A stretch of DNA of 63,753 nt, counting the filler, from Klebsormidium nitens (lineage: Eukaryota; Plantae; Klebsormidiophyceae): NCBI GenBank assembly GCA_000708835.1. It is 4 parts of 4 records of this genome, joined end to end, with 100 filler letters (N's around TTAATTAATTAA, not from the genome) between each part and the next. Parts side by side here need not be neighbours in the genome. Positions count along the whole stretch, not along the records: positions 1 to 31,520 come from DF237758.1; 3 more parts are not named here. One strand, given 5' to 3'. A program made the translations under genes and the position numbers. The notes beneath the pieces were generated by a model. That model worked only from the letters and a program-made list of their open reading frames with translations. It was not told the origin of the DNA and did no database searches. Shown in pieces: positions 4,131 through 40,786 of the stretch (its first letter is position 1; each line of letters begins with the position of its first letter).

Positions 4131-5539
4131 TGAGCTCTTTGTACGAATCCGTTGCCCACATGCAAATTAATTCAAGATTGGTTTCCCACTTTTGAAAGGA
4201 AAGGTTTAACGGAAGTGCCTGCTTTGATTGTGCGCATAGATTGAGGTGGCCACCCTCGGCGCTTGAGAAATTACGTTTTACGTTTTTAAGTGCTGTCGAA
4301 TCCTTGATCTGCATGTCAGCTTTGACGCCTCATGGCGGCTTCAATATTCCACCCGATGATCGTTTGGTGAATCTATTAGCCCGACGTTACTTGTTTGGAT
4401 TTCCGAATTAGAGCACGCCATGTTCTCAACAAAGATTCTGAACTCTCTAAGTGTCCCGTTCATTGGGTCTGCATTTCATACATAAAGCCCAGTATGCCCA
4501 ACCTGCTAGGTTTGCAAAGCACGCAGCGAGGCGTGTGAGCTTCTCTTTCCTTCGCATCACGAGCTCGCTGAATTTTCCGAGCAAGTTAGATCGATGACGT
4601 AAGCAAGTCAATATCCTTTCAAGCTTCTCTGCTCAGTGAGCCTGATTCTTTTGACGCCTACCTTCAAAGAACAGCCGACAAACAAGAAGGCGTGCGAGTC
4701 CTCTGAGTATCTTTCTCCGTAGCAAGTCCCTCTGGTTTCGCTGGAAAGGATGACATGCAAAGAAGTCACATATGAGTGCGCCCGCGCTCATCGTTGGCCA
4801 CATATCCGAAACCGGCCGGCGTGATAGAAAGACGGAGATCCGTTATACATTCTTTTGTTGGCAAGGTACGCTTTCTTTCAGGGGCGACACTGCCCAGTGG
4901 CAGCGACGCGGCTTTCAGAGACGTGTAGGTCGTTGCGATTCTGAGTCCCATGTCTCCTGCCATCAAAGCGACTGCAAGAGTGTTGCCTAACGGCTACTGG
5001 TTGCGGATCCATCGTGCCGGTGAAAATGCTCGAAAGACGGTATGCGGAATTTGTGGCTCCTCACAACCAGGTTGCCGATGGCCAATGGGGTGCGAGGCCA
5101 GATCGAGGCAGCCAGCATCATCGCCTCTTTTCTAATGAGTTGGCCAGGAAACGGCGCTAAACGGCGACCCCATATGTACGAAACGCAAATGGCGTTCTTT
5201 CTTATCTGTCTGCCACACCCTCCGGAAGAATTGAGGAGAAGCTGAAAGTACGTAACTTGATGACGAGCGCAGGCACACACGATGATAGAAGACTGACACG
5301 CCTTGCCCATAAGATTAAACCCAGCAAGAACTCGCCTCTCAAATGGACGGATGCAGCAGCTAGTTCGTCTCGAGGCCACACTCTTGAAACACGGCAGTTT
5401 CGTAAGTACCAATCAATGATCTCCACCACGGCGCTATGGAACTAGCAAGGTCATACGACAACTACGGTAGATCACCCAGCGAACCTGCGCGCTTATTTCT
5501 TGGTCGACCGTGACTGTGACTTAATGAAGAGAGTCGTGC

Positions 5540-5627
5540 CTGTACGTACGTGGCTCGCAAGGTAGAGATCGTCTCCTACGATGGCCATTAGAAGTGTGTG
5601 GCCAGAGGTACTCAACGTCATTGCCGA
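5540..5627 (+). promoter_or_regulatory. Repeat-head module copy G (inverted)
   Basis: TACGTGGCTCGC 5547-5558 (contains ABRE core ACGTGGC), TGGCCATT, GTGGCCAGAGG, CGTCATTGCCGA 5616-5627. Closely matches the reverse complement of 12718-12810. Confidence 0.5.
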
Positions 5628-12717: not shown

Positions 12718-12810
12718 TTGGCAATGACGTTCAGTCCCTCTGGCCACGCGCCTCAATGGCCAAGGAAAGACCCGGATGGTTCTTTTGCGAGCCACGTACG
12801 TGAAGGCACG
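12718..12810 (-). promoter_or_regulatory. Repeat-head module copy D
   Basis: TTGGCAATGACG 12718-12729, TGGCCACGCG, TGGCCA, GCGAGCCACGTA 12787-12798, GGCACGA. Confidence 0.5.
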
Positions 12811-14494
12811 AATTTCAAGTCGACCAGAAAAAGAGCGGGTTCGCTGATTAACATCCCTTGCTGGATTCATCTTAATGCTAGTGATCACTTCAAGACTTGC
12901 CCTGACATATGAATGGTGACTGGACTGGCATGCAGGCTCTTCAAAATTGATCAGGAGACGCAGTCTTTCAAGAACCTGCTGCGCTTCGGTTTGCGCGCCA
13001 CCGTAAATGAGAGATTTTAAGCACGCTTTTCAGTATGGGCAGGGGGGAGTGAGCCCAGCACCAATCTCGAACAGGAGACCTCTGAGACGAAACTGATCTT
13101 ATAATCCGGAGTGACGTTTCAGCGCACGTACGTAACATATGCTCCGTAGAGAAAAGGGGATTTTCCCGTTGGAAGCGACCTTAAAGTTATTCTATGACCG
13201 TCCATAATCCTGGTCCTGACTTATGCGTGCTTGTCGGTGGAAAGTCTGTGACAGGCGCCGTGCCGGCGCCGCATCAATCTTGCTGCCCTGGCCTTTATTT
13301 TGTACTCGTCCCCCATATCGTGCGGATATGACTGCTGTCCTTGAGCAACCGTTGCACGCTCAACTGGTGAAGAGAGATGAGCCCATGTTCGCCGCAGTGG
13401 CTTAAGCAATTCCGAAGCTGGTTTAAGAGGTATTCTCGCACTTCGCTTCTGGAGGGATGACTCTGAATGCACTATAGAGTGATTTTGTTGACTGTGAGGT
13501 TTGCTGAGAAAGGGCCATTTCTGGACATGCCTGGTACGTACCGCATCGCCCTTGCCAGTGATTAGTCATGTTCGTATGTGACAACCTGCTCGGCAAGGAT
13601 GAATCTTCTCGGCTTCCCGGTTTGGGAGCCCACTTGTATCCCATACGATTGTGAATGATGCCGGCAAGAAAAGCGCCAACCCCGTTATGGACTGAACGTG
13701 AGCAGGGGACTCGAACAAATTCTTTTGGCTCCAGATGTTTGCCTTTTGAGCTTCGTTCCTTTGTTCGCAAGTCTCCATGGATGGAATTCTGGTGGCTCAT
13801 GATACAGAATGATGTTCAAGCGGACGTTATTCGGCTGCCAGGGAAGTTATTCGAGAAGTTTGACATGGCCACTGGCAATAGCTGGCCCAGATGATTGTCA
13901 AGCTCCTTTCTTCTGACGAGGCAGCTTCTCACATCACTAGTAGTAGGTCTTACATAATTAAGAGAAGGTCCTGAGGCATTTTCCAACTTTCACTGTTCTG
14001 TGGGACTGCCCAAGATAATTACTCCTGAGGTCTGCTAGCCTCTCGCACGGCCTGACTTTTTCAGCAGCTAGCAAGCGTCAGTAATTCTTTCCAGATACTG
14101 TAATTACGTTACAACTTTGTGTTCGTCAAGGAATGGAGTAACCCTGCGCGCACGGCCCCGTGTGGGCAATCAGTACTAGACACAATCCTTAAATGACGCC
14201 ACACCTGATTACTGGTTTGCGCTCTTTAGCTAGAGAGGGAGCTCAAATCCCCAAGTAGCCTTCGTTGGGCTGTGCCCTGAGCGACTTCGCAACACCCTGT
14301 AAAGCCTCGGTCGTGCAGTGTTACGCATCTCAGGTTTCTTTGTGGTGCATGCTTTTTAAGAGGAGGTTTCGTTTTCCAGCGCTTCTTCCCCTGTAAAAGT
14401 TCTGGCGTGTCAGGCCTCTGAAGCTTCTCAGACGATTTCCGTTTGAATCGACATAGGGTACGCTTTGCTACTTTAGTATGTAAACGGAAGACGC

Positions 14495-15270: not shown

Positions 15271-17547
15271 ACGAGGTCGTTCGATCTAGATCTCTAAAGC
15301 TTGCAAAGTTCATGACGTCAATGAATCTCTGTATCGGTGAAGTCTCTGAACTGCTGAGGCTGCTGGTTCTCCCGCCGCTTGGCGTCGCAAAGGTGAGCCG
15401 GCAGTGCAGTGAAATAGCTTCTTATAAACTTCTCCTACTCTTCTATTTTACTCTCCGCTTCTCGTTTTACCTCTTGTCCCCCTGAAAACGTTGTCACGCG
15501 AATTCTATCAAGTGCTCTAGCGCCCATCGTGTGCAGCATGAATGAGCCTGCCTTCCGGCCGTGGAAAATCACGAACCCAATTACGAGAATTCTTGGCAAC
15601 GCTTTCTTCAAGTGGGCGTCTGCCATTCGTGGTTTCCTCGGCGACGTTTGGTCGCAGACAACCACTTTGTGTCGCTGCGGTTCTGGATGTCATGACCTTC
15701 CGAGCGACTGAAAGAGTGTAGCCAATAGCGTGTGGTCGCCGAATAGGACATGTCCTTCGACGCCCTGCTTACGGAGGAAGAATCAAGGGACGAAGGCTTT
15801 GGCTAGGATACAAAGCTTTGGCTTGCCAAGAGTATTCCTTTCTGTTTCTTAACGTACATGTATACAATCGAGGTGCTCGTCCGCGTCTTCCCGGGCTCCA
15901 CCATTTAGACTCTCTGCTGTTGGCAGCCTCATCATTACTCCCGCCACTTAAGAGCTCGAGTCGTCTACTTCAATCTGTGTCCGCTGTCGAGAGCAGAACC
16001 CTCTCAAACCTTTCTCCGCCCTTTCGGCGCATTAAACTACGTCTCCTGCTCGAACCTTAACGTAACGGTGTCGGTTGAGTTGGGCTCGTTTTGACGAACC
16101 GATCGGCCTCACTCGGTCAAGTCATCGCGTGAGATCTGAAGCGCCCAATTGGAAGCTTTGATATCCGTATGACCCAAACTTCGCCAAGCTTTTGCTGAAG
16201 TTCAAGAAGCAACTAGTGTACAAAGCGGTACAGCTCTCAACCATAACCTGCTTGCAGGGTGACCTGCTTGTGGGGTCAACGAAGCAGGCTCGACCAAAGC
16301 TTTTGTATTCTTCTTTCTCAGAACTCTCATTTCGTGCAGCTGCAGAATATCATTTCATGTTCGTTTGAGCGGTTTGACATACTTTCTGTTGGCAGGGAAT
16401 GTAACTGTGGATTGCCCACCGTCGGGCAATAGCAGTACCGGGAAGGTTGCAATGATGCCAACACACGCACTCCTCAAAGGCCAAGCTTTTTGTCAGGCCC
16501 GAGTTCTCTTCTATGTAACGATATGTACAACATTGCTTTCCAAGGAAAACTTTGAGCGTTCACAAAAGTATACCAGTGCCTCTGGTCATGTGCTGCCTAC
16601 CAATGCTTCGTGGTGGCCGTCGTCTTGAACTTCGACAGCTTCGTCCTTCTCTGGGCGCTTCGAGAAATGTCTCCTTACCTTCCGAGAAAGAGCCGAGGCC
16701 CCCGTGAGAGCACGTGTGGTTTTTTGCATCCGGCGATAGTAGTGCACAATCTGGGGGGCCCTGTCGCATTGTTTCACGGTGGGTGCACCCCTCGACCGAC
16801 TTGGGGAGTCCAACTCTCGTTCGGAAGGCCTTTATGTCCTTGAGGATTGCAACCACCACTGGCCACAGGCAGTTGATAGCCCGCTTTTGTTCTCAGGGCA
16901 CCCGCGAACGAAACCCGCCGTTGGGCTTTCAAAGTGTCTGCGTTTACAAGGCCAGGCTCCACAATACCAGACCTTCGGGGGTCCGATTCATGGCAAGTTC
17001 AACAAAGCGCTTTGCTTCTCGACCGCAGGCAGGCGCAGATTGGGTTCACCCGAATTACGCTGCCACAAAGCAAGGGACTAAAACCTGAAAACACTAAGAC
17101 CCTATGTGGTTTGACGCTCCCGTCATCAAAGGAGCACGGCATATTGCGCCAGTTGGTATGCAAATGTTTTCAGCGATGACGATCATGCTGTCCGAAAGGT
17201 ACGCCTCAAAAGGGTTTTCTAACCAGCGACCGAGGCTGCCTGTATTATCGGACATTGTTTCGCGAGTCAGTGCTTCTCTTTCCCTTTCGGGTTGCGCGGT
17301 TTTGTTCCGACTATCCTCAGTCCGACAGGCGAGTATCTTGCTCGACCCGACGGGCAAGCGTGTCAGCACGTTGCAACGTGCATTCGCTTCTGTAATGTTC
17401 TTTTTCTTCTCCGCGTTTCCTGCTTCGGAAGGAGGAAGGGCTGACACTTTTTATAATTAGAAAGTCGCAGTTCTTGGTTTCATTGAGAGCGCCCAGCTAA
17501 CTCTGACGCCATTTCAGCGGCGCTGATCGTCTCACAAAAGGACACGC

Positions 17548-17615
17548 TCGGCAATGACGTTCGCACAAGTCTGGCTGCATTGGCCATTGCGGGGTCTTCT
17601 TCAATCGGAGCCATC
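17548..17615 (-). promoter_or_regulatory. Repeat-head module copy F
   Basis: TCGGCAATGACG 17548-17559, CTGGCT, TTGGCCA, GGAGCCA. Confidence 0.45.
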
Positions 17616-19034: not shown

Positions 19035-23358
<4,324 letters not shown>

Positions 23359-26300
23359 AAGCGCCCGAATCGTGCGCGCCTCGGCAAGCCTAATACCACT
23401 TGCGCGCTGTGGCGCAATTTTGACAGTCTTGTGAAGCCTCTGTTTGATGCCCTTGAAAGCGAGCTAGGCGTGTTTCGGGAGATTCTGACCGAAGCATGCT
23501 GACTCTCGATCGTGTTTGAAGCGTTGAGCCAGGATCTTGTGTATGTGTGGAACGTGTTGTGGATAAACATTGTACAGACCGGATTACGTTGATACGTTGT
23601 CTCTCCAATTTTTAAACTTGAAAGTGGGCCTAAGTGCAGATTCCGTGTCACTACGTTGCGTCCCGACTATTTCACCAATCGAATCCAATGCTTCGATAAT
23701 GCCATGTAATCTTTCACTGTCTATATTTAAGGTTTAACGGGAAATATCCTTTATAAAAGGTATGTGGACAGATTGAAACTTGAAATACTTCATAACGTTA
23801 CTGCGCTGCAAAGTACGGTCACATGATATGCCATATTGTGCAATGATTACTTAGATAAACAATAAACGACTTGAAGCATATATGATTTTTCTCTTTAAAT
23901 CGATACTATAGATTTGTCTTCTCAGTATCTTTACATCAATCCTAAACGAGGTACAATTCATATTGACATGCCGGGTAGTTAGGACTGATAAAGACATGCA
24001 TTCATTGCATCAGTAATCAAATCATCAGGCCGGTATATACAATCATACATCAGAATCAATCATTGCCAATATCGAATTGTGCAACAGGGAGCTCGGCATG
24101 ATGCAATGACGCCGGTAGCGGGACCACTTCACCTTTCGCTGAAATCGTATGATGCCATGCGCCGCATGCATGCCATACTACGTATGCGGCATTTGATGAA
24201 GTGCTTGTGTGTTGATCACTGGCTTGCCGCGGCCTGACTTCGTCAGATTAATGCGTCTTCAGGAAGTTCGAGTCGTGACTCAGTCCAAGCTCTACGTGTT
24301 GCTCAGCATGTACTAAAGCTGCAGCCCTGCCGGCCCGGTCATATAGAACTTAGCAGTGTCCGAAGATCCGACCGTCGCTGCCTCTGTAGACGAACCAAAG
24401 CTAGGAAGATTGATTAGAGTTCCAGCTCGCTTTCTTCGCCACTTGTTACCTCTTCTCCATGTCCGACGCCATAGACCTGAGGTAGTCATCTAAGTGCGAC
24501 AACAGTCCCTACAGGGACAATTAAGAGGAAGGACTTTAGCATTGCGTGCGCAGTAATTGCGTGCAGGCTCACTTTGGCAAGCTCTAAGGGAGCTAGGGTG
24601 CCGCTTGGTGGAAGATCCTAAGTAGACCACCCTGTCAGTTGTCCGTGCTTCTGCCCACACAGTCTACCTGTTATACCTCTACATAAGCATCAGATCTTAA
24701 TAGAAACGTAGACAACCCCGATCAAGAACGCAAAAGAGCCCCCCTTCTCAATTCTATCAAAACGTTTCAGCAGATTGAACCCTGTCAGACTCCCGTCCTC
24801 CACCCTTCTTGGTCCTACTCCGTAGATTGCGACAGAGCTGAACTCATATGCCACCTTTATCCCAATCGTCATAGCCGCGCAACCTGCGCAGTTCCTTATG
24901 CGCGTCGATCGGGCTGCCAGGAAAAAGCGGCCGCTCTTTCCACCGTTTCAGGTTCCTTTTCATTCTGGCCCTGCTAGCCGGGTCCTCCACCATCTTCAGT
25001 GACGCCTCAGGTCGTCTGTGGAGTCCAGAAAAAAAATCAACGGGTGCCAGCGAGCGTGGCTTAGATTCGGGGATGTGAGGAATAAAGCCTTTTAAGTAGT
25101 CCGTCTCTGGTGGTGTTTGAAGTGCCCGCACGACTTCAGGAGGTGTTCTTTCTTTTCCAAATCCAATGCTAGAATTATCAAAAAAAATCTAGAGTACTAA
25201 AAGTGTGCAAGAGAATGCCTCAAAGCACATCGTTTAGTCTGCTCTTCGGAATGAAAGCCACAGAAATCCCTGAAAGGATGATCCGAATAACAATTGACTC
25301 GGAAGTGATTGTGGACAAGACCAGACCAGAAAGCTAGTGTGGAAGCGAGTCTCTCATTCCGCTGCCGCTAACTCTTACCAAGCCAAAATGCAAATACTTG
25401 ATGTAGCTGAAGAGAGAATAAATACAGACGCCCCGTTTTGGAGCAGCTTGGACAAAATAGTACCCATCGGATGAGTCCGGATCAACAAACTCCCACAGAA
25501 CAGCCGCGGCGCTCTCCGCTTCTCGAAAGCCCTGATTTCGATTCACTCGGAGTAACATAGCCTGCGCAAGGAAGAACGAAACAGTTGCTGAAGCAATTGC
25601 AGCTCGAAGCTTCCATGATTTCAAAAGCACTTGATCCTGTTGGAAAGCCTTTGTAAGGGGCGCAGATTACAATGAAGAAACAGCCAATTATATTTTGCCC
25701 AGATTAGAAGACAACTACGAGACGGTTCATCCTATTTGCGCGCCGGTGAAATATCCATGCCACCCCTTATTACGCTTCTTCTATCAACTTCCTTAAAATC
25801 TGTTGATAGGGGGACGGAAGATATGAAGCACTCGAGATCCATACGACAAAGATCAAGAAGCTGCAGCTAGAACAAGACGGACGTCATTATGCAGAGCGAT
25901 TTCGCGCAATCTGAATAAAGTATCATTCCACACATAAGTCGTTCACGACTGTCCGCAAGCTCTATGAATTGGACAGTTGCAAACCCAAAGTAAGAGATTC
26001 TATCTACAAGAGATCTACAGTTGGCAACGCACAAACCTCAATTGAGTCGAGCGAAGCTAAGGCAAGACAATTGTTTGCCTTGAGCATCAGGTTAGCATCC
26101 ACTCGCACCTGGAAAAGACCGATAAAACCTGCGCTATTGAGGCGAGAATGTTTCAGGGACTCAGAGTGGGCTTTCACACCAAGTTCGCTTTCAATTGGGT
26201 CACCGCCTTACCATAGCCCTCTCCCCCATGCCTCCGTGCTTCTCTCTCAGAAACGCGCCGACAGCGTATCTGGGGCCGGCGATTGTGGCAGCCGAACTGC

Positions 26301-28708
26301 GATTGGTTGCGTTTCAGCAGATTGTTCTCCGCTTTCCTGAGATGAGAGTGTGGGTGAGAACATGCTGGACGCATGCGAGGATAGAAGAGGCTGGGGACGA
26401 GGACGTGCACTCTGTGCGGAGAACGCCAAAAGAGCTGGGATAGGGGCGAGTTTGGATGAAGATGTTGGTAGAATATGCAACTTGGACTGAAGCAGCAGCC
26501 TTTAAGAACAGCGTGCAGAAGTGGCCTCCATGCATCTTTCTTTCGGCTTTCCTGACATGATCAGAACGCTGAAGTATTGGAGTTGATTGGCCGCAGCGCT
26601 GTTCATGAGTAGCCAGGCATTGCAGGGCCAAGGTAAGGCATTGTTCCTCTAGCAACTCAGGCTTTGCTCCCCTATTTGTGGACACAAACGTGAAGAATCT
26701 GGGAATCTGGATCCCTGAAGTCATCTGATGCCTGCATAAAGGGCTTTGAATGGAGATCCCGTCAGGATATGCACTATTTTCCAAGTTCTTTCAAATATTC
26801 CTGGACGCACCATGAGATCTGGAGGCGTGTTTCCAGCTGCGTCGTGGACATTAGGGCCAGTCTCTGCGGAAACACACCAAGCACCGGCCTTCACTATGTT
26901 TCATCTGGTTAGAGAGAGTGACAATGAGGCTGCTTGGAAAACCTTCAAGAGAGTCCTCTCATGCCAGCACAAGATTTGGCACAAACTGAGCTTGAGACAA
27001 CCAGCGCTCATAGACAGGAATGAAAGCTGCAGAAACATACTTGGTACTGAGAACACTTGCCAAGTGTCTTGAACCACTTTCCCAAATGGTGGAGAGTCCC
27101 TAGCGCAGGCAGACCAATCTAATGGCGTCCATGATGCACATTGCCTATCAATAGAGGAGCCCCAATCCCAAACCCCTCGGTGACACCGCCGGAAGCAAAG
27201 CATTTAATCTCACCTGTACAGATAGTGGTAGTGCTACCAAAAAGACGCACCGTCTGCAAGAGCAGAGAAAGTTTTTAGCACATCTAACATGGTCTATTAT
27301 TTACAACTGCAAGTGCATTATTCTCAAATACACCCGCAACTTTTAACAGATTCAGATCTTATCCTCACAGTGCTGTACTCTGGAACTGAACCCACATTGC
27401 CCGTAGTTGCTAACTGCCTCTGCGAAAGACCGAATGGTCTGCGCATGCTGCCAGCTGGAATCTGGGACAAATTCAAATTGCAGCCCACTTACCTGGCTGC
27501 TCGCAGCGCACCGGGCCTGATTCAGAAAAACGGACAAAAGAGCAATTCCAATAGATCCCGCCATCGGACTCGCCATATTTTAAAGGCTGGGAAAGTTTGA
27601 CAATCCCCGCTAAAGGAGCTCAACGCAGCGGCATATGTTGTGCTTATCTAAGCATGCTGCCAACAGACGACCTGTCAAAGCTGCCGGGAACCTCGCAGCG
27701 CCCTTGAAGAGAGGGCCCTGCAGGATTTCCCAGCTATTGGACCTCGCTTTGATCACATTGTTGGCCGCCTCGCCATGCAATGCAGTAAGCAGTTCCCAGT
27801 TTTTGTAAAGAATTGCAGAATCAGAAGCTTCCTGGACTTCTCAGGAGTGGTGCTATGCAAGTACCTAGCCAGCTGAGCTCACCAGCGCCAACCCTAAACC
27901 TTACGATATTACGAACACAGGACTCGAACCCCACCCAAACCCTGCAGGCTGTGTTGCTCGTTGCATTATCGCGGCCGCGTCGCGCCCGGCTCTTAGCAAT
28001 TATAGCAGAAATGATCATTAATTGCGGGCCGGGCCGGGCCATTTTTGCAAGAGGAATTCGGTCACTCTCAGTGGTTCGTAGAGTAGCAATTGAGGTATGT
28101 GTTTCGATGCGACTAGACGTATTGATGTGGCCCCGGACGTGCACTGTCGTTATTCACCACATGAGCTGATCGAGTTGCTGCCGCATGCTATTTACGCAAA
28201 CGATGGCGTCCCAATTGCGCGCGCAAGCAGTGGCAGAGATGGCTCGCCGACCGTCATGACCGCCAGTTTCTGACTTCCAGTCATTGCTCCCATCAGCACA
28301 CAACATCAATCATGTTACCTTGTCTCCACGCAACTAATAGCAAAAGTTCCTAGCTAGCTGACTAGCTTTATAGAAGTTTATATAGAAGCTTTGTTGCGCT
28401 TATGGCGCATCACTTAGGGGTCAATAGAAACCGCACAGTCAACGCTTGAAAACGGGCCCATGATCGATGCTGCAAAGACCAAATGTTGAGGGCCACGGCC
28501 AGATAGTATTGCGGAGCGCGCGCCGGCCGACCCTCGGCGATGATAGTAGGTGCAGCACGCAGGGCTCAAAAGGCAGATCAACTACGGTCGGTCACTCGAC
28601 GAGCTTCTGATAGGTTCAACCAGTGCGAGACTTTCATGACCAGAAAGAACGACACATGACTGATCGATCTAGTAGACCCGGTCTCATGTGGCGCTTTGAC
28701 TCGAGCGG

Positions 28709-28870
28709 TCAGAAAAAGGAAACCGTGCCACCTACGAAGTGCGGACCTCTCAGGATAACTCCGATGTCATTGGCCTTGAACAGGGGTCTTGTGCCCTCCC
28801 AAATGATATCCACTTCGTAGCTCTCTCCGTTCACGACGAAGGCCTTGAGGATGTCCAACTCGTGGCCCAT
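28709..28870 (-). pseudogene. bro: Bro-N domain N-terminal fragment (large DNA virus bro family)
   Basis: Hand translation (too short for the ORF track): MGHELDILKAFVVNGESYEVDIIWEGTRPLFKANDIGVIL then RGPHFVGGTVSFF*. The DIxKAF...PLFKAxDIGxIL pattern matches my recollection of the start of NCLDV Bro-N proteins. Similarity stops at about 28750. Confidence 0.65.
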
Positions 28871-29154
28871 GGTTGCCTCGCGCTGTGGATGGTTCTTTCT
28901 ATGATACTCGAGTTCCTAAGCTTGAGGGCGTGGCGCTCATCCCTGGGTCTCGTCCTCATTGCACAATTCAAGTCCTTAAGCTTGAAAGCGTGGCGCTCAT
29001 CCCTGTCCCATCCACAAGGAACCCACGTTCCTAGGTCTGTCAGACCAGACCTTCCTTAGGTCCTTCACCAGCCCGCGCTCTGTCGGAATGTCACATCGTT
29101 GATCCCAAAAGCTGTCTGCACGGAATGCATGCCAACCAGAATTGATACTCTGCT

Positions 29155-30122
29155 TTATCTGAAATTTGTTTCAGCCGAGTGGTAAGCCGAGATTGAGCGT
29201 GGTGACTTATTCAGGACGAGTGAATGGAAGAAGTGGGCCGCCTTGGCGTCTGGGTTGTACCACGCAAACCCCCGACCGCCCTGGACAGCATTTACATAGC
29301 GTCGTAGCCCGATTTTGTCGCTCTTCCAAACGGTTTTCAAGCCTGCACCCTTGTTGAGGGCGGACTTAACCTGTTTGGCCTTCGTTTTAGGCAGGATCAG
29401 AGCGTAACCAAAGTCGATGATTGTTACCTTTCCGGTCTTCTCGTTAAAAACATGTTTCCAGCGTGCATATCCGCATGAATAGCTCCCAGCAGCCAGAGCG
29501 TGAGGATTGCTCGTTCAATGACGGTAAACTGCACGCTGGTCAGGTGTTTTTCGTGGCTCACGAACTTGTCGATTGGCTGCCCTGGAGCCTCTCCCATCAC
29601 CGTAATGAATGCCATCCCCATCCTGTCATGGCCCTCCAGAAGGCCTGCGTAGAAGATGGGCGGCACCACGTCACTGCCACAAACCTTGGAGCCTCGGAAC
29701 GTCGTTTCCTGGTTATGCAACCATGATTGCAACTTGCACTCCCTCTGGCATTCATCAATGTCGTCATAGTCATCTAGCAGATGGACCTTGATGACCACGG
29801 AGGAGGGCGCCATTTTAGGGTTCCCAATCACGTAGGCGCTGAGGCACCGAAACAGCTGATTGTGGAAGGCTGCGGGCGCCTGCTTGGCCCGGTAGGCACG
29901 GCCGTGGCTTCCGGCCGAGAGGAATCCAAGCTTGCCCCCGAGCTTCAGCTCCTCCAGGAACCTCTTGCCTCCACCCTCTGTCGGCCGGAAGTCGGAGGGA
30001 GCAAGGTGGCCTTTGGAAGGAATCGTGGCGTTCAGAAAGGGAAGAGTGACCCTGTTGCGCTGGCGTCTGCCCTTCACCCAGTGGCTGTAGGGGCCTCCGT
30101 CTGCAGGTGGGCTCAGATCCAT
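29155..30122 (-). pseudogene. Viral-type protein kinase (~322 aa) with one 1-nt frameshift
   Basis: LSAGSHGRAY (Gly loop), VVIKV, ECQRE, HADMHAGN. One base missing from the A5 run at 29446-29450 shifts the frame; restoring it gives GNMFFNEKTGKVTIIDFG (DFG at 29407-29415), which joins ORF 29155-29340. Confidence 0.85.
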
Positions 30123-30200
30123 TGGTTATAGCAGAGATAATGATCCACGTTCGTGCCAGTCACTTTCGTTTTTTTTTTTCACCTTAGTGTATTGGTGAGT

Positions 30201-31428
30201 ATGTCAGGAGGTCTTCTGTCTTTGGTGGCTCAGGGCGCCCAGGATGCTTACCTCACGGGAAGCCCTCAAATCACGTTCTTCAGGATCGTCTATTGCAGGT
30301 ACACCAACTTTGCTTTGGAAGCCATCGAGCAGACATTCAATGGCGCGGCTGATTTCGGCCGCCGCGTCACGGCCACGATTTCTAGGAACGGGGACCTGGT
30401 GACCACGATGTATCTGCAGGTCACCCTGCCGGCGCTGACTTCGACCACGACGCATACGGAGCTGCGTTACATCAACTCGGTGGGCCACGCCCTCATGCGA
30501 AACGTAGAGGTGGAGATTGGAGGTCAGAAGATCGACAAGATCCCATCCGAGTACATGGAGATCTTCCACCAGCTGTCGATGCCCGAGGAGAAGAGGAAGG
30601 GTTACGAGGAGATGGTCGGCCAGCCGAGCAACAGCGACACGGTCCCGTCTTCCAACAGGACCACCGCTGACACGGCCCTCTTGAACCTCAATCACTCCAC
30701 CACGCTTTACATCCCGCTCTTCTTCTGGTTCAACCGAGTGCTAGGGAACGCTCTGCCGCTCATCGCCCTTCAATATCACGAAATCAAGGTCAATATTGAA
30801 TTCCGTTCCCTTAATGAGCTCTACAGGTCCAATGTGGCTGTTTCTTTCAACCCGGTCCCGTCAATCGTGAGTGCCTCGTTGTACGTCGATTATGTTTATT
30901 TAAATACGGACGAAAGGAGAAAATACGCATCTTCTTCGCACGAATTTCTAATAGAGCAGCTCCAATTTACGGGTTCAGACACTTGGAGCGGCGGAACGGG
31001 CACCAGCAAGATCCGAATGTCCTTCAATCACCCCGTCAAGGAGCTGATCTGGACATGCACACCAAGCGCCAGCGCATCTGCCGACCCCGTTGCCGGCAAC
31101 ATGTGGTTCGACGGCGGAGAGCAGAATTCGGGAACCGACCTGATGACGACCGGAAAGATCCTGCTCAACGGCCACGACCGCTTCCAGGAGCGGGCCGCCC
31201 CCTACTTCCGCCTGGTGCAACCGTACCAGCATCACACCAGGATCCCCAGTTGACCGCTTCATCTACGTCTACAGCTTCGCCTTGAAACCGGAAGAGCATC
31301 AACCATCGGGAACTTGCAACTTTAGCAGAATCGATAATGCGGCGCTCAACCTCGGCCTCGACAGCGACGACCCTGTCAAGATCTCCGTTTATGCCGTCAA
31401 CTACAACGTTCTACGTGTGACCTCGTGA
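30201..31428 (+). pseudogene. MCP: NCLDV major capsid protein (double jelly-roll), ~408 aa after correcting one frameshift; C-terminus truncated
   Basis: MSGGLLSLVAQGAQDAYLTGSPQITFF, RYTNFALE, FGRRVTATISRNGDL, LPLIALQYHE, EFLIEQLQFTG, FNHPVKELIW, LLNGHDRF, YFRLVQPYQHH. An extra T at 31250-31251 creates TGA; removing it continues SDRFIYVYSFALKPEEHQPSGTCNFSRIDNA...YAVNYNVLRVTS*. Confidence 0.96.
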
Positions 31429-31520
31429 AGCGGCGTTGAACAGAATCGACTCGGGGTGAGAGAGATACGGCTGGAGAGACGATATACGAGCTGAAGATAG
31501 CTGTTGAGTGATAACTCTCT
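31426..31520 (+). mobile_element. Probable start of an LTR-type insertion truncating the MCP
   Basis: Begins with TG exactly where capsid similarity ends, shares a motif with 1-30, and runs into the assembly spacer. Confidence 0.3.
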
Positions 31521-32017: not shown

Positions 32018-33969
32018 ATGGGTACAGAAGAGAGGAGTCCAGTTGAGCCTGAGACTGATCCGGAATTTGCTCAGAGAGAGAGGGTTGCATATCGAAGGAT
32101 TGAGGAATTGAATCACAAAGAGAGAGAAGTAGAGCTGCGGGAGCGTCAGCTCCAAGAAGTTTTGCAGGAGAAGGCTGTACTGGAGCAACGTTTGCGGGAG
32201 CTCCAAGTTAAGAGTCAAGTTTCAGCTGAACCGTTGTCGCCTCGTCATGTTGAGAGTTTTGCCTTGCCAAAGGAGGAGAAAGACCTCCTGATGGCTAACC
32301 TACAACAAGAAATGTCAGAGCACCTCAAGGTTTTCAGTGAAAGTTTGCGCGCCGAGCTACTCCAGCAACATTCAAAAGTGCCTGTACTTCGTCCCGCGCG
32401 CCCAGTCGTGGTTGACAGCCCAGCTGCTGTTGCTTCCGTCATGCAAAGTTCTACTCTCACTTCGTCACCAATTGATTCTGTGTTTACATTTGGGGGTCAA
32501 GCTGGAGTTCCTGCTACACAAGCATTTGGTAGCTTTCCCCACTGTCATCCTGGTTCAACTGCGCCGGTGACACAACCTGATTCAAATGCTCGTTCGTCGT
32601 TAAATGCACTTTTTGGTGGGTGTTCGTCACAGTTCGCGTCGCTTACACCGCCAGGCAGTATATCAGAAGGTGTGCCTATATTGCAATCTGTTAATGCTGC
32701 TACCGGGACTTCTCCAGCTGCTGCAGTGGGCTTTGGTTCCAAAATCTTTTCAGACGTGCCGCCAGCAGTGACGTCAGCAAGGGACCACCCTTGGCAGCCT
32801 AGTGCTTCGTCTTTTGTGTTTGGGGCTCAAAACCCCGCATCGTCTACAGCCCATTTTGTTCCTCATGTTACTGGTCTCAATGCTACTTATCCGTCTTGCT
32901 TTGCTGGTCACGGGGCCGCTGCTCCGTCGCCACAAGGTTTTGCTCAAAACATGATGTCACCAGGGTTTTTCATGCCTGCATATGCTAACTCTGGGTTCGT
33001 TTCTCCCAATCACCTGGTTCGTCTCAGGGTACTGGTTCACCCAACCTGCAAATTCTTCCTACTTTTGATGGTACTCGGAAAGGTCTGACTGCAAGGTCCT
33101 GGCTGACAGACCTTGAGCAGGTCCGCGTACTATACAATTTGTCGGACCAGAAAATGACCCCTTTGGCTCGTCTCCGTTGTATTGGCAAGGCCCGTGACTG
33201 GGCAGAGAAACAGCCGGAACATCAGACCTGGGAGGAGTTTAAGCTGGCTTTTCTGCTCGAGTATGGTGAACACAATCAAGACAAACTGTTCTTGGAAATG
33301 CTTAATCACATCCAGGATGACTCGTCTGTTGGTGAGTATACAACTGCAATGCAGCGTTACTTTCGTCAGTTAACAAACGTGACCCCGGAGAAGCAGAAGG
33401 AATACTTTGTCAGAAACTTGAAAATGGGTCTTCGTGAGAGTGTCTTTGATGCCAGTCCGTCGTCTTTGATTCAAGGTATTGAGATTGCCCGCCGCGCTGA
33501 GGACATGTATGCAGCTTTGCCCGGTAAATAGGAGGAACCTGGGACCGAGATTCGGAAACTTCGTAAGCAGGTTGAGCTCCTTTCGATTCAAAAGAAGCCT
33601 GCTGACCTTCGTATGTTAGCGCGTCCTGCGCCTGGTCCTGCACAGCCTGCCGTTCAGAATTCCGGTCCTCAGAGTGATAACGGAGATGCAGGGGATTATG
33701 CTCGGAGATGTCTGGCTTGCAATGATCCTAATCACGTCGTCCGGAATTGTCCGAATCCTCCGAAATATCCGTACTTCTCTTGCTGTGATTTTTGGCGCAG
33801 GCACAGGGACGGGTGTCCCGAGCTGGGCAAGATGCAGGCGACGCACGCTCAAAACTATCTCGGCGCTAACATCAATGTCCTCGAGCCTAGTTCTCCGGAT
33901 TCTGCAAGTCGTCCCCCGGAGGAGATCTTCGCGTTCATTGACGATGAATCTGACGCCTCGTCCGACTGA
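32018..33969 (+). pseudogene. gag: gag with retrotransposon capsid domain and CCHC zinc knuckle
   Basis: WEEFKLAFLLEYG..QDDSSVGEYTTAMQRYF; CLACNDPNHVVRNC (CX2CX4HX4C) at 33709-33750. Frameshift near 33010-33060 and in-frame TAG at 33529-33531. Confidence 0.88.
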
Positions 33970-34426
33970 AAGCTCTGATACGGAATCTCAAAACTCTGAT
34001 CAAGAGATCTATGCAGGCAAACGAAGGCGAGAACCTGAGCCAAGGCGTGAAGCGGAGGCGCCGGGTGGCGCGAAAGCATAGAAACGTGACGTCAACCAGC
34101 TTCCTCGCAAGCGTGAAGCCGTAAAACACGTCTCAAATCATCTTTCTGCAGAAGAGAAGCAAAAACGGAAGGAGACGCGTGAGCGCAACCGGGAAATCAA
34201 TCGCGAGACCAACCTCGGAATCATCCGTTCACTGCTTAAGGGTGTTCAACAGGATATTGCCGCTCATCGTAACCTGAAACATATCCGCACAGATCTGCAT
34301 CACCACATCGACAAAATTCTCTTCCACAACCGGGAGGAGAAGAAGGCCGTCCGTCCGCCAAAAGCGGACAAGTCGTCAAGTTCGTCTAAGCCGCCTGAGT
34401 CTCTCTTCGCAGTTATACAATCCGAG

Positions 34427-34900
34427 GTGATCCCGAACTCGTCACAGGACAAAACACAATCGTCTTCCGAATCTCGTTACATGCACATCGAGCTTGAGCG
34501 TGGTCCGTCTGGTCGGAAAGAACGGTATGAAGTGCCTTCGTTTCCTCTTCGGATAGAAATCTTTGCTGAGGTTGAAGGTTTGAGAATGAGAGTCCAGCTT
34601 GACTCTGGTGCCACGTTTTCCGGAATCTCCCGGGAGGCTGTGCACAAGTGTGGCTTGGCCGGCAAAATCAAGCCGACCCATATGACTTATAAAACTTCGT
34701 CTGGTGAAATCCGTCCTGCCGAGGGCAAAGTGCGTGTCCACATTCAGATCGAACGCCTTCGAGTCACTTCCACAATGCTCGTCATGCCTTACGGCTGTTC
34801 TTACAATCTTCTTCTGGCCAATGACATCGTCGGTCCCCTCACAGGAGATGTCTGTCGGAGCACAAAACAGGTGAAGTTCTTCTGGGGCAAACCATCCTGA
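34427..34900 (+). pseudogene. pol: pol: aspartic protease domain
   Basis: VQLDSGATFSGIS (DSG at 34601-34609) and YNLLLANDIV; frameshifted at its 3' end. Confidence 0.88.
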
Positions 34901-35450
34901 CTCCTCTATTGCATGAGATGTCTGATGATGACGTCAAAGTCCGTGAGTCGTACTTTTTCACCGTCAACCAGTTGTCTTCGGAGTGCCATGATTCTGACGG
35001 TCCTAAGCCCGTGGCTTACATTGATGAACCGCCTGACTTCTTCTTGTTGGATGAGTCAAAAAACGAGTAGCTGACCCTCCTCTTAGCTCCGAGTCTTACA
35101 ATGTTGAATCTAAACGGGGGCCTGTTTTGAGAGGAGTTAAAATTCGTTCCGAGAGTGACCTAGAAGTCTGCCGTTCCTGGATGCGTGCCAACAAGTTGAA
35201 GAACGGAAGAGTCGAGCACATCCTGAAGCATGCCAGGAAAGCCGTCAACGATTCTGGCGTCCCTGATTTCGTCTGGTTGTATTCTGAGGATGTTTCCGAC
35301 CCTCCGGTTAGTCTGTTGCGTATTCAAATCGAGCTTGTGACTGACAGCGTGCAGGAGATCTACTCGTCTGATCCCGCTTCGTCCAGTTCTTCATAATATA
35401 CAGACGAAGAAGTTGAAAAGATCATAAATACTATCTCGTTTGGCAAGAAT

Positions 35451-36887
35451 TTGTCGGAATCGGAAACAGAGTTGCTGCAAAATGTCGTCAAGAAAAACAT
35501 CAGAGCTTTTAGTCGGTACAAAGGTGATCTCGGGTTTACAACTCTCATTGAACATGAGATCGATCTCGTCAATCATACTCCGGTCAAACTTCGTCCTTAT
35601 AAGCTGTCCTTTGAAGAGCAGAAAGCAGCGGCATAATACGTTGCGCAATTAATTCGTGAAGGGCAGGTTGTTCCGAGTAAGTCCCCGTGGTCAAGTCCTG
35701 CTTTCCTCGTCCCAAAACCTGATGGGTCGTATCGTTTCGTCGTTGATTACCGCAAGCTCAATGAAGTTACGCGCTCCTGGTCTATGCCTTTGCCTTTCAT
35801 GTCCGACCTGCAGCAACAGCTAGGCCAGGCCCGCTACTTTGCAACAATGGATATTGCTAGCGGTTTTTACAATGTTCCTATGAAAGCCGAACATCGTCAG
35901 TATACAGCATTTTGTCTTCGGAATCTTGATCTCTTTGAGTGGCTCGTCATGCCTATGGGGTTGAGAAACGCCCCTGCCACGTTCACTCGTCTGCTAGAAT
36001 TCGTCTTTCCTCCGCTCGATTGGTCTTCGTTTCTGAAAGTTTTTATTGATGACATGTGCGTCTTTGCTGACTCTATTCCTGAGCTTGCTTGGTATCTCGA
36101 CCGTGTTCTTTCTCGTGTAATTTGGGCCGGCCTTAAACTTGCACCCCAGAAATGCTTCTTTGGCGCCGACTCCGTCAAGTTTCTGGGGCACATTATCTCT
36201 AATGGCCAAATCACGATGGAGAAGATTGAGGCAATCCGTAACCTGCTTCCCCCTGAGGATAGGCATCAATTGCAACAAGTTCTTGGCCTCTTTCAGTATT
36301 ACCGAGTTTTCATACCCAAGTTCGCACACATTGCTCGTCCTATCATGTCCAAGCTGCTTTCGAAAGATGAGCCGTTCGTCTGGTCCACTGCTTGTCAAGA
36401 AGCTTTCGACTTTCTGAAAGATGCACTCTGTTCGTCCCCAATTCTGGCTTGTTACAATCCCGAGTTTGAGTTCGTCCTTGATACCGACTATCAGCAAAAC
36501 GCTATTTCGGCGATTTTTGGAATGCGGAATCCTACGTATAGGCGAGAACAAGTCATCGAGTATGCTTCCCGCACACTTACAAAACAAGAACAGAGCCTGT
36601 CTGCAACCGAGGGGAAACTTCTCGCGGTCATTTTTGGCCTTCGTCGCTTTTCCGTTTACCTTCGAGGGCGTCCGGAATTGGTCTTGCGCACTGATCATCG
36701 GGCTCTTACCTGGTTAAAAACTCTTAACCCAACAACCGGGAAGCTTGCTCGTTGGTCATACCTTTTGCAGGCAGAATTTAACTTTCGAGTCGAGCACCGT
36801 GAAGGGAAAAGTCACCTCAATGCTGATGCATTGTCCCGAGCTGTAGCAAAGCACTTGAAACAGCGGCCGTATTTGGAGAAGGATTGA
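35451..36887 (+). pseudogene. pol: pol: reverse transcriptase and RNase H
   Basis: IEHEIDL..PVKLRPYK, SPWSSPAFLVPKPDGSYRFVVDYRKLN, MPMGLRNAPATF, FIDD (36042-36053), KCFFG..VKFLGH, LDTD..YASRTL..TDHRAL..NADALSR. In-frame TAA at 35634-35636. Confidence 0.96.
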
Positions 36888-37384
36888 CCAGGCCTATCTC
36901 GTCTGCTATCCGTTTTCAGTCGACTAACCTGTTGGAGTTTCTCTTACAGCATATAAAGCATGGCTTCGTCTGGCTCGGATCAGCATATGAGATCGTCATC
37001 GTCAAGTCCGTCGTCGTCTCGTCACCGTCACCCGCTTCGGGAAAGCGGAAATCGTCCTCTCAAGATCTTAGCGACATGGAAGGTAATCCTTCATCAAAGA
37101 AGAAGCGGAAATCGTCCATTCCATCTCCTTCGTCTCCCGGTAAGAAAAAGAAGTATGTGTACACTGAAGATCAAAAACGCCAGCTTCGTCAAGACCATTA
37201 CAAGTTGCTTCACGAGATTGATCACTTTAAACGAACTTCGTCATTTCCGGATTGGGTCAAATCAAAGTCTGATCGGCAGAATTTTAAACGGAATGATCGT
37301 TTTGTATCGTCGCGGACCAGCTTCACAAAAACTCGTCAACTCCAAATCGGCCTTGCCGTGTGTTGTGAGAAAATGAGATTTATC

Positions 37385-38742
37385 CAATGCTGAAAGAACT
37401 TCATGAAAAGGGCGCTCACTATCCAAAAGATCAAGGTAAGTTTCGAACACTCGTCGAGCAACGTTCCTTCTTTCCTCAGCTAGATTTCTGAAATCACTCG
37501 ACATTTTATTCTGACATGTGACACGTGTCAAAAGGAGAAAGCGTCTAAGGCTAGTCGGACCGATAGAGAATATAATCCACCCCCACCGACTGATCCCTAC
37601 TTCCGTGTACACGTTGATCTGTGTGGGCCTTTCCGAAACGGTCTGAACAAAAAACGCTTCGTCTTTGTCTGTCTTGATTCCGTCACCAAGTACGCATCAG
37701 TCAAAGTCATCCCAAACAAAAAGGCTGCTACCGTGGCACGAATATTTGACGATGAGATTCTTGACCGTCACGGGTGTCCGTTCGAAGTCGTCACTGACCA
37801 AGGCACGGAGTTCAGTGCAGAATTTTCTGATCTATTAAAGGGTGCCGGTCTTCGTCATGTCCGAGTCCGTCCGAAAAACCCACAGGCAAACGGTCAGGTG
37901 GAAAGATTTATGCAGATTCTGAAGTCCACCTTGCGTGCCACGTGTCACGAGCATCCGTCAGACTGGGAACGCTTCGTTCAGAAAACAGCCTTCAAATACA
38001 ACGTCTCTTTCCAGCAGTCAATCAGGACAACTTGAAGCCCCTTCGTTTGTCTCTTTGGTCGCCAGCCAATCCTTCCGGCTGATCATGTCTTTCCGTCAGC
38101 ACTTTCTGAGGCCGTTGATCAGCCCACAACGGACTCTCTAGAAAGTCAGGCTTCTCGTCTGGAGGCAATTCGGAACGTGCAAAGACAATCGAAACTTTTA
38201 ATCGAACAAGCTCAGATCAAAGCAAAAGAGAACTTTGCACGGTGGAACATTCCTCGTCGTCCTCGCTCCAATTCTCTTTCCCCGGGAGATTACGTCATCG
38301 TCTAGGTAACATTTGCGGGTTTAAACTTCACTGGGAAGGTCCGCATCACTTCGACGGATGGGTCGGAGAGGAACCGAATCGTCGTGCTGTTCTTCGAGAT
38401 CAGAAGGGTCATATCTGGCAGCGCCCTAGTGTTGAAGTCCTAAGTTACCTACCTAGGGAGACATTCCTGGACAAAGTCGTCCGTCCTTTGCAAACGGAAA
38501 TGGAAAATGCAGTTCAAACTCCTTTGCCCGAAGCCATTGCAGGTAGTCCGTTGCAAGAAGGAGAAACAATTCCGTCTGAGGCGCCATTGTCTCCAGAGAT
38601 CGTCCTTATGTTTGATTCAGAAAAGCCTGCCGAGTTTCCTCGATTTGATCCTACCACTTTTGTCCGTCCTCTCGAATCCGTGCAGGAACCCGAAGTCCGC
38701 CAGTCAACAAGAACGAAGAAAAAGAGCTCACGTTTAGCCTAA
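37385..38742 (+). pseudogene. pol: pol: integrase (HHCC, DDE core, GPY/F module)
   Basis: LHEKGAH..TCDTCQK, VHVDLCGPF, VVTDQGTEF, PQANGQVERF, KLHWEGPHH, and a terminal RQSTRTKKKSSRL. Interrupted by stops and frameshifts. Confidence 0.92.
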
Positions 38743-38748
38743 GTTGAC

Positions 38749-40786
38749 ATGAACAGTACTAACACTTCTCAGATCCCCTTGTACAGAAGTGGTACCAGAT
38801 GCACGAGTTCCGGTTCCGCCAGTACCAGTGTTCGTCCCTGTTCCGCCTCAGCAGCAAAACCTGCCCGTCTACCAGCGAGATCCTGACAACTGGGGCCGCT
38901 TTCCGGCTGTGCGGGACATGTTCAACGCCCTCTCCGCATATCGTCCTCATTCCTGGGGTCTACCCCCTCCTGGCCGCCATCCATATCTGGGATGACCTCA
39001 GTCGTCCCGATCAAGTAACACTGGAGCAGCACTTCGTTAAGAGTCTTCGGGAAAATGAGAGGTATCAGCAGTGTCGTCAGAGGGACCCTCAGCTTGCGGT
39101 TTACCTCGATTGCCTAGAGGGAATGATAGAGGGTGAGCTCGCCTACGAAGTCGACGATCTCATTCCCAGTGTAGAGTTTCACTGTCCCTCTCCCCCAAAC
39201 CAGGAGTTTGGTGCCTGGCTAAACCGTCTCAAGCCAGAGTCCACAGAAAAGAAAATTAGAGACGACCTCGTCTACTTCTGGTTACGGTTAGAAAAGCTAC
39301 CCCGTTCTCCTATCCTCCTTCCTACCCACATCTTCCCTCCAGATCAAGTGCTCAATCTCGGAGCACCTCCGCCTCCTCCAAATCCTCCAGCTGGTAGAGC
39401 GTTAAGAGAGGAACGGGTAGCAGCCGGAGTTTCGTCTCAAGCGCAAGCCGCGCTGCAGAGGATCGACTCGTCGAATCCTCGTCCTCGTCCTCGTCAACCG
39501 GCAGTGCCCTCGTCTGTTGCTCCTTCGTCTGTTGTGCTTCCCGCACAACATCCTTCGTCTGTTGTGCCTCAGGCACACAACCCATCGTCTTCGTCTTATG
39601 TGCCTTTGGCACAAAGCTCGTCGCTTTCGTCTCATTCGTCCCCGGCTGCACAACCACCGTCTTTGAGCCGCGCGCCGGCTCTCTCCTCGTCTTTTCCCCC
39701 GTCAACTTCGTCTCTGTCCCCCTCGTCTGTTCTCCCCTCGTCATTTCGTCTTCCTCCGGACACAAACCAGCCCCCTCCTCTGCTTTATCCACTTCCGCCT
39801 TCCACAACCATTTCCCCCGCCCATCCCTCATTCCGCCATTCCGTTTCCGTTCCCACCCCCATTCCGTCCGACCGGGAGCTGATNNNNNNNNNNNNNNNNN
39901 NNNNNNNNNNNNNNNNNNNNNNNNNNNNNNNNNNNNNNNNNNNNNNNNNNNNNNNNNNNNNNNNNNNNNNNNNNNNNNNNNNNNNNNNNNNNNNNNNNNN
40001 NNNNNNNNNNNNNNNNNNNNNNNNNNNNNNNNNNNNNNNNNNNNNNNNNNNNNNNNNNNNNNNNNNNNNNNNNNNNNNNNNNNNNNNNNNNNNNNNNNNN
40101 NNNNNNNNNNNNNNNNNNNNNNNNNNNNNNNNNNNNNNNNNNNNNNNNNNNNNNNNNNNNNNNNNNNNNNNNNNNNNNNNNNNNNNNNNNNNNNNNNNNN
40201 NNNNNNNNNNNNNNNNNNNNNNNNNNNNNNNNNNNNNNNNNNNNNNNNNNNNNNNNNNNNNNNNNNNNNNNNNNNNNNNNNNNNNNNNNNNNNNNNNNNN
40301 NNNNNNNNNNNNNNNNNNNNNNNTTTGAGCCGCGCGCCGGCTCTCTCCTCGTCTTTTCCCCCGTCAACTTCGTCTCTGTCCCCCTCGTCTGTTCTCCCCT
40401 CGTCATTTCGTCTTCCTCCGGACACAAACCAGCCCCCTCCTCTGCTTTATCCACTTCCGCCTTCCACAACCATTTCCCCCGCCCATCCCTCATTCCGCCA
40501 TTCCGTTTCCGTTCCCACCCCCATTCCGTCCGACCGGGAGCTGATTGTGGAGCCGACTTCACGCCAGCCGCTGCGCCGATCCATGTGGGAAGAGGAGATT
40601 CACATCCTGGATGCCGTGCACGAGAGGTTCATCATTCTCATCATCAACAACCGGCCGCCTGATGGCAACCTCGGGGTTAGTTTTACCTTCGTCAACTGGG
40701 TGACGTACATGGGCCAGTGTTTGGGCGCACGTCCTCATCAGAGCATAACGGCCACGACGCACTTTCCGTCTAGCTTTCCGAGGTAG
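38749..40786 (+). pseudogene. Extra ORF of unknown function between pol and the PPT
   Basis: Starts 7 nt after the pol stop. A globular-looking segment (WDDLSRPDQVTLEQHFVKSLRENERYQQCRQRD..LVYFWLRLEKL), a Pro/Ser linker and a C-terminal MWEEEIHILDAVHERFIILIINN segment. Two frameshifts near the 5' end; spans an N-gap. Confidence 0.55.
39884..40323. other. Scaffold gap with duplicated flanks
   Basis: About 220 bp before the gap (from ~39662) reappears verbatim from 40324, indicating an unmerged contig overlap. Confidence 0.9.

What the first reader, a model, noticed from the sequence alone, without database searches (positions are those of the whole stretch)
28745..31428. Giant-virus genome fragment (bro + kinase + major capsid) about 5 kb from a photosynthesis gene
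An intronless, compact three-gene block with a clear NCLDV capsid gene (MxGGLxxLVAxGAQD start, typical of Algavirales and Imitervirales capsids) lies on the same gap-free contig as the host LHCB gene, so it is linked to host DNA and not only joined through a spacer. If the host is a streptophyte alga, this records a virus lineage for which I know of no isolate (inference). Endogenised NCLDV DNA is established in green algae and some plants; the lineage and gene order here may be new.
Basis: partly seen in the sequence, partly recalled or inferred. Interest (0 to 1): 0.82.

Follow-up and report, generated by a model that had tools for sequence, protein, structure and literature searches.

The report
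Broken giant-virus remnant in algal genome
Three broken giant-virus genes, one of them the shell-protein gene, sit beside working genes of the alga Klebsormidium nitens and are likely the decaying remains of a past infection, a kind of leftover already reported for this genome.

Summary
The block is real but already known in kind. The window's first 31,520 bases are a Klebsormidium nitens scaffold. It carries a giant-virus (NCLDV) capsid gene, a viral kinase and a 36-codon bro stub, and all three are broken. Capsid and kinase are frameshifted, and a high-copy repeat cuts off the capsid's end. Public run contigs repeat these breaks and link the block to a spliced host gene 0.9 kb away and on to LHCB (one sample, possibly the source). 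A live co-cultured virus is therefore unlikely. Six capsid genes in this genome were reported in 2017 (PMC5294986), and methylated viral regions in 2025 (PMC12344493). Two things may be new: a host-virus junction, since 2017 saw only one, and an unexplained halving of depth at it. The capsid forms a tight clade with a second K. nitens copy and three intact JGI/ENA proteins whose context I could not read. The viral order is unresolved. The scan noted other viral pieces in this genome, none here.

The parts
20643..23358 (+). Host light-harvesting chlorophyll a/b-binding gene (LHCII type by recalled likeness), spliced; further 5' exons lie upstream and were not mapped
   Evidence: PF00504 on one exon, E 1e-10 (another exon gave no hit). 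GT..AG joints in RNA-type contigs. Stop at 23358.
24219..27810 (-). Nearest host gene: spliced, five GT-AG introns, function unknown
   Evidence: Joints in contigs of X5 and X18, two studies. Splice ends checked. No Pfam hit on the last exon. No match to giant-virus ORFs.
27983..28031 (.). Depth step and likely left edge of the insert; short contig hole in three runs, spanned in a fourth
   Evidence: Depth 21.1 to 11.5 (X1), 21.1 to 11.2 (X2), 27.8 to 12.2 (X3); an X4 contig spans 27701-28300 with no mismatch. Inverted repeat here, not better than shuffles, z -0.99.
28031..28750 (.). Unassigned non-coding stretch at the lower depth; origin not shown
   Evidence: No hit to 2,123 ORFs from 169 fetched loci. 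One contig joins it to bro, kinase and capsid.
28751..28858 (-). bro stub: first 36 codons of a Bro-N-type gene
   Evidence: No direct Pfam hit.
29158..30122 (-). Viral-type protein kinase pseudogene, frameshifted near 29450 between the catalytic loop and the DFG motif
   Evidence: Two frames match intact P0122/P0123 at 68-69% and 58-61%. An X1 contig over 28031-30595 has no mismatch or gap. Relatives in giant-virus contigs.
30201..31425 (+). NCLDV major capsid protein pseudogene: frameshift near 31250, last codons missing
   Evidence: Pfam. PDB match to PBCV-1 capsid E 8e-65. An X1 contig over 31169-31454 has no gap, while paralogue contigs lack four bases at 31249. Alignment.
31426..31520 (.). 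Start of a high-copy dispersed repeat (begins TG; likely an LTR end) that truncates the capsid gene and ends the contig
   Evidence: Depth in the tens of thousands; six X1 contigs and four X3 contigs carry unlike flanks before 31426. No second copy in the window. LTR identity is inferred.

Best explanation
A stretch of about 3.4 kb with three broken giant-virus genes sits next to spliced host genes in Klebsormidium nitens and is likely a dead, silenced remnant of viral DNA that entered the alga's chromosome. Steps: (1) An NCLDV of a lineage tied to Klebsormidiophyceae likely left DNA in the nucleus, which was joined to the chromosome (inferred; no integrase or target duplication seen). (2) The piece was cut down and mutated: bro is a stub, kinase and capsid are frameshifted (shown). 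(3) A high-copy host repeat, likely an LTR element, sits at the capsid's end (repeat shown, class inferred). (4) The block is likely kept silent by CHG methylation, as published genome-wide for K. nitens viral genes (not tested at this locus). It cannot encode a full capsid protein or a complete kinase domain.
For: Capsid identity. Host identity: P0003 is 100% identical on a 31,520-base K. nitens contig. Breaks are reproduced in run contigs with no mismatch or gap. Linkage chain: an X4 contig spans the step with no mismatch, and X1 joins 28031-30595. An X2 contig ending at 27990 is long enough to reach LHCB exons if colinear (only 27701-28300 was laid), and X1 joins LHCB to 26291. The capsid has 7 private changes in 237 conserved columns against 1 of 231 and 2 of 232 for its two closest relatives; 3 of the 7 fit C>T or G>A (small numbers). 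RNA-type contigs of two studies stop near 27810 where DNA goes on, a weak hint of silence. Literature: PMC5294986 section 8, PMC12344493 section 9.
Against: Depth over the block is 0.44-0.55 of the flank in three runs, with no second branch seen; the tool warns that contig depth is no copy number. All four DNA runs are one sample and may be the assembly's source, so they are not independent. No single record spans LHCB to capsid. In X1-X3 there is a hole at the step, and the bridging X4 contig has depth 4. The capsid-to-repeat contig has 29 letters on the repeat side, just under the tool's 31 for a bridge. No read-level or long-read data were available.
Confidence: 0.88

Rival explanations
1. 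The block is not a primary integration site but a piece copied or moved from another viral insert in the same genome by host rearrangement or transposon activity.
For: A paralogue 91% identical lies on another K. nitens contig. Paralogue contigs cover the capsid and its upstream stretch. An intact kinase paralogue lies on a third contig of 47,014 bases. The block is small and cut at both ends. PMC5294986 names duplication as one option.
Against: Kinase and bro show no paralogue depth at 85% likeness, so no close second copy of the whole block was seen. Independent insertions are equally allowed by PMC5294986. This rival concerns the route only, not the viral origin.
Confidence: 0.35
2. The insert is real but carried by only about half of the nuclei or chromosome copies in the culture, so an empty or different allele exists at about 28,000.
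For: Depth halves at one place in three runs. A motif otherwise found only upstream of the viral kinase recurs at that place (pattern chosen after seeing both copies).
Against: No loose end or joint shows a second allele. Contig ends differ between runs (27983-27994), as in a coverage dropout rather than a fork. Library bias against this DNA or a duplicated flank would give the same step. Accumulated decay fits an old insert.
Confidence: 0.25
3. The join is an assembly chimera between host DNA and a co-cultured free virus.
For: Depth step and contig hole at the junction. The block lies at a contig end.
Against: The capsid is frameshifted and ends in a host high-copy repeat, and the kinase is frameshifted, in run contigs too, which a replicating virus could not carry. 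One contig spans the step. The genome holds several diverged viral genotypes.
Confidence: 0.04
4. The host keeps the block for a use, for example as a template for antiviral small RNAs.
For: Raised as a general idea in PMC5294986. No evidence from this locus.
Against: All frames are broken and the capsid shows extra private changes.
Confidence: 0.05

Closest known systems
NCLDV inserts of Klebsormidium flaccidum (= K. nitens), Gallot-Lavallee and Blanc 2017, PMC5294986 (passages, sections 7 and 8, supplement legends read; figures not held)
   Same: Same species; six MCP genes, five DNAP, six ATPase and five VLTF3 reported and placed in Phycodnaviridae; read as genuine insertions. This capsid is likely one of the six.
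   Different: They saw a host-virus juncture on only one contig (DF237168). Whether this scaffold is that one or is in their Fig. S5 could not be read. By recalled accession order it would be another contig. They did not describe the breaks or the depth step in the text I read.
K. nitens GEVEs marked by repressive methylation, PMC12344493 (one passage and section 9 read; supplement table searched)
   Same: Clusters of Nucleocytoviricota genes in K. nitens, enriched for silencing methylation.
   Different: No locus-level data for this scaffold in the one supplement file held. This piece is about 3.4 kb with one core gene.
Chlorovirus Vp54 capsid (PDB 3kk5, 5tip, 1m4x) and chlorovirus kinases with PBCV basic adaptor domains (names A278L/A282L recalled)
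   Same: Same capsid families. The kinase family includes tandem chlorovirus kinases at 26-33% identity.
   Different: The clade's capsid is only about 48% identical to the chlorovirus one. Direct sisterhood is borderline rejected (AU p 0.041). P0124-P0126 show no basic adaptor domain.

Membership tests
NCLDV (Nucleocytoviricota) major capsid protein | Capsid_N plus Capsid_NCLDV domains above curated cut-offs | tested here: met
   176.8 bits against cut-off 24; 85.7 and 59.7 bits against 34.8.
NCLDV (Nucleocytoviricota) major capsid protein | Nearest relatives are giant-virus capsids, not cellular proteins | tested here: met
   All 120 listed hits carry both capsid families. PDB hits are viral capsids.
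NCLDV (Nucleocytoviricota) major capsid protein | Intact frame able to give a full capsid protein | tested here: not met
   Frameshift near 31250 and missing last codons; it is a pseudogene of the family.
Endogenous giant-virus element | Physical link to intron-bearing host genes | tested here: met
   Gap-free contig and overlapping run contigs; one sample, short-read contigs only.
Endogenous giant-virus element | Depth equal to host single-copy DNA | tested here: not met
   0.44-0.55 of the flank in three runs; contig depth is a crude measure.
Endogenous giant-virus element | Several NCLDV core genes in the host genome | not testable with these tools
   No whole genome held. Reported in PMC5294986. 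Only the capsid is a core gene in this block.
Endogenous giant-virus element | Silenced and methylated | tested here: inconclusive
   RNA-type contigs of two studies stop at the host gene's 5' end (weak hint). Methylation is published genome-wide only.
Algavirales / Phycodnaviridae in the broad sense | Groups with Algavirales references in marker-gene trees | tested here: inconclusive
   Capsid trees leave the clade unplaced. Only one Algavirales-type genome (a chlorovirus) and three labelled Imitervirales rows were available. The 2017 trees of four genes said Phycodnaviridae.
Bro-N family | Pfam PF02498 match | tested here: not met
   No hit at E up to 1 for the stub. It matches only the first 36 residues of Bro-N-bearing proteins, so it is a remnant and not a full member.
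LTR retrotransposon end (31426-31520) | TG...CA termini, paired LTRs, target-site duplication | tested here: inconclusive
   TG start, high copy number and varied flanks; the contig ends after 95 bases.

The most novel reading that the evidence does not exclude
The five-member capsid clade marks a still-circulating, uncultured giant-virus genus that infects Klebsormidium-type algae. The intact JGI/ENA members on 9-78 kb contigs would be its free or freshly integrated genomes, and this insert would still be segregating, present in only about half of the nuclei of the culture. That would give genomes and a culturable bait host for a first giant virus of streptophyte algae, the sister lineages of land plants.
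Probability: 0.2. Interest if true: 0.65.

Novelty: already known. Interest (0 to 1): 0.27.

Why it matters
At the level of the genome it repeats a published result. Its local value is a clean host-virus junction with expressed, spliced host genes on one side, which the 2017 survey saw on only one contig, and a record of how such inserts decay (truncation, frameshifts, a host repeat in the capsid gene). The larger open question is the donor virus: I found no paper describing an isolate that infects streptophyte algae (searches gave 0 papers; the library lacks most subscription journals). The three intact close capsids and four intact close kinases in environmental or run-derived data are concrete leads to it.

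Tried and rejected
Whole-genome search for other core genes: no genome is held. Source records and DNA of P0001, P0002, P0004 and P0005 could not be obtained. The cluster look-up could not be made. A 26-residue motif shared by all four had 0 exact matches in IMG/VR (a stricter pattern also 0). So free virus against endogenous is open for the three JGI/ENA capsids. Kinase-capsid synteny elsewhere was not shown: no capsid match in the 11 kinase loci, and none of 5 kinase hits lay on a contig of the capsid contigs' lengths (weak test). The P0122 single-protein scan of IMG/VR found nothing. The bro stub found no match in 3 virus records (2 of 5 not held). No RNA holder is on record; no cover of 27861-31163 in X5 and X18 is not evidence by itself, and the other unlaid runs were not used. 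The AU test on 56 rows did not finish and was redone on 22 rows that I chose after seeing the larger tree. The hairpin at the step is not better than shuffles. A shared intron at the capsid's last codons was considered because P0001 departs from relatives at the same codon; the reading phases differ and P0001's DNA was out of reach, so it is untested. Fig. S1 and S5 of PMC5294986 are pictures and could not be read. Four other long ORFs in later scaffolds gave no Pfam hit. No structure or complex prediction was run, as it would not change the verdict.

Full report
What the window is. It is a string of scaffolds joined by 100-base artificial spacers at 31521, 43231 and 59560; bases 1-31520 have no N. 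A database protein 100% identical to the capsid lies on a contig of exactly 31,520 bases and is named KFL_008090050 of Klebsormidium nitens; the kinase model is KFL_008090040. No whole genome was held.

The three genes. The capsid gene starts at 30201. Its first 350 codons match Pfam Capsid_N and Capsid_NCLDV, and a second frame (31252-31425) matches the rest of Capsid_NCLDV; solved PBCV-1 capsids match at E 8e-65. The kinase runs head-to-head from 30122 on the minus strand in two frames that match intact proteins P0122 and P0123 at 68-69% and 58-61%; the shift falls between the catalytic loop and the DFG motif. By language-model features its three nearest clusters are mostly Nucleocytoviricota, with bacterial and fungal kinase clusters scoring almost as high. 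A profile scan of IMG/VR gave 11 relatives among 73 pattern matches, including tandem kinases with PBCV basic adaptor domains; the record behind one of these loci has a capsid nearly identical to PBCV-1 Vp54. The bro gene is a 36-codon stub: no Pfam hit, but 47% identity to the start of a Bro-N protein and E 2e-6 against a small profile, the next of 1,070 segments scoring E 1.3. In that comparison with 2,123 ORFs from 169 loci, 12 segments hit at E up to 0.01: 10 within 28712-31425 (five of them antisense shadows of the capsid) and two weak single hits elsewhere; none lay between 23302 and 28712.

The breaks are in the DNA. Contigs of run X1 cover 28031-30595 and 31169-31454 with no mismatch or gap, so both frameshifts are reproduced, and paralogue contigs lack four bases at 31249. 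At 31426 a repeat with depth in the tens of thousands begins, and six X1 contigs carry unlike flanks before that base. It starts with TG and is likely an LTR end (inferred); it removes the capsid's last codons and explains the contig end. The window capsid has 7 private changes in 237 conserved columns against 1 of 231 (P0001) and 2 of 232 (P0002); the more distant P0004 and P0005 have 15 of 245 and 13 of 243. This fits relaxed selection, on small numbers.

Link to host DNA. RNA-type contigs X5 and X18 show the LHC gene's introns and a second spliced gene on the minus strand at 24219-27810 with five GT-AG introns. That gene, 0.9 kb from bro, is the nearest host gene. X1 joins LHCB to 26291 in one contig and covers 26298-27994 in another. 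An X2 contig ending at 27990 is 6,578 bases long and would reach the LHC exons if colinear; only its last 290 bases were laid. An X4 contig spans 27701-28300 without mismatch, overlapping both the host exon and the contigs that run into the capsid. All four DNA runs are one sample and may be the assembly's source, and no single record spans LHCB to capsid, so the link is supported but not independently proven.

Against the simple reading. Depth falls at about 28,000 from 21.1 to 11.5, 21.1 to 11.2 and 27.8 to 12.2 in X1-X3, with a short hole whose edges differ between runs and no second branch. The tool warns that contig depth is no copy number. An insert in half the nuclei, a library bias, or a duplicated flank would each give this; I could not separate them. 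A free virus is unlikely because the capsid is broken and ends in a host repeat. A motif seen upstream of the kinase recurs at the step (pattern chosen after the fact), a hint that the insert starts there.

Relatives. Of the 120 best capsid hits among 7,993 scored, five are 74-100% identical (the window's own model, a K. nitens paralogue at 91%, and three intact JGI/ENA proteins at 85, 75 and 74%); the other 115 are 45-56%. The window capsid and the four others form one branch with support 99 in trees of 32, 59 and 22 rows (dereplicated subsets of up to 398 fetched capsids, first capsid piece only). The branch is not placed at order level: the labelled rows were three Imitervirales (IM_01, IM_13, IM_08; 3 of 12 ids found in the PMC8575486 supplement) and one chlorovirus. 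Holding the clade with chlorovirus Vp54 gave AU p 0.041 (rows chosen after seeing the larger tree). The clade's shared 26-residue motif had no exact match in IMG/VR, and the contigs of the three intact members could not be fetched.

What is known. PMC5294986 (passages, sections 7 and 8 in full, supplement legends only) reports six MCP, five DNAP, six ATPase and five VLTF3 genes in this species, places them in Phycodnaviridae, argues for insertion over contamination, finds related genes in K. subtile, Interfilum and Entransia, and sees a host-virus juncture on one contig only. Its Fig. S5, which I could not see, bears on whether this junction is new. PMC12344493 (one passage, section 9, one supplement file searched) reports K. 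nitens GEVEs and strong methylation of viral genes. PMC11244446 (one passage) mentions endogenisation in Klebsormidium; PMC5890265 (passages) shows CHG and CHH methylation on silent transposons; PMC4052687 (passages) did not state ploidy in the terms searched. Two searches for a virus or GEVE of streptophyte algae gave 0 papers. The scan's own notes list six other pieces of this genome, several with giant-virus genes, none at this locus; they gave the intron lead and are not support.

Verdict. A real, decayed endogenous giant-virus fragment with a supported host junction, in a genome where such inserts are published: already known, interest 0.27. The open leads are the depth step and the three intact environmental capsids.

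Noticed in passing
window 28000-28016 and 30126-30145: One 16-base motif with a short variable gap occurs only at the depth step and directly upstream of the viral kinase start (0 in 100 shuffles, but the pattern was chosen after seeing both). It may be a viral promoter-like element marking the insert's left edge, or a host TATA-like element.
   Followed up: partly
window 31425 and protein P0001: Both K. nitens capsid copies lose the conserved C-terminal residues at the same codon. Here a repeat starts at that point; in P0001 the cause is unknown.
   Followed up: partly
window 30726-31040: Third-position GC in the capsid gene dips to 0.49-0.66 against 0.83-0.89 just before and 0.74-0.89 after; possible local decay or a converted patch.
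   Followed up: no
window 24219-27810 (-): Spliced host gene of unknown function, with RNA-type contigs in two studies, one under another organism label with a few differences. The public gene model of the neighbouring kinase splices its first part onto the bro stub (P0121), likely an annotation error.
   Followed up: partly
window 32018-38742: Ty3/gypsy-type retrotransposon remains (gag, protease, RT, RNase H) on the next scaffold, joined to the viral block only by the artificial spacer.
   Followed up: partly
window 48369-49709: Array of about 78-base GC-rich repeats across an N gap, in long open frames.
   Followed up: no
window 5529-5638, 12230-12816, 17031-17562: Short dispersed direct and inverted repeats, possibly small transposon ends.
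   Followed up: no
window 39662-39883 and 40324-40545: Identical 222-base copies on both sides of an N gap, likely an assembly overlap.
   Followed up: no
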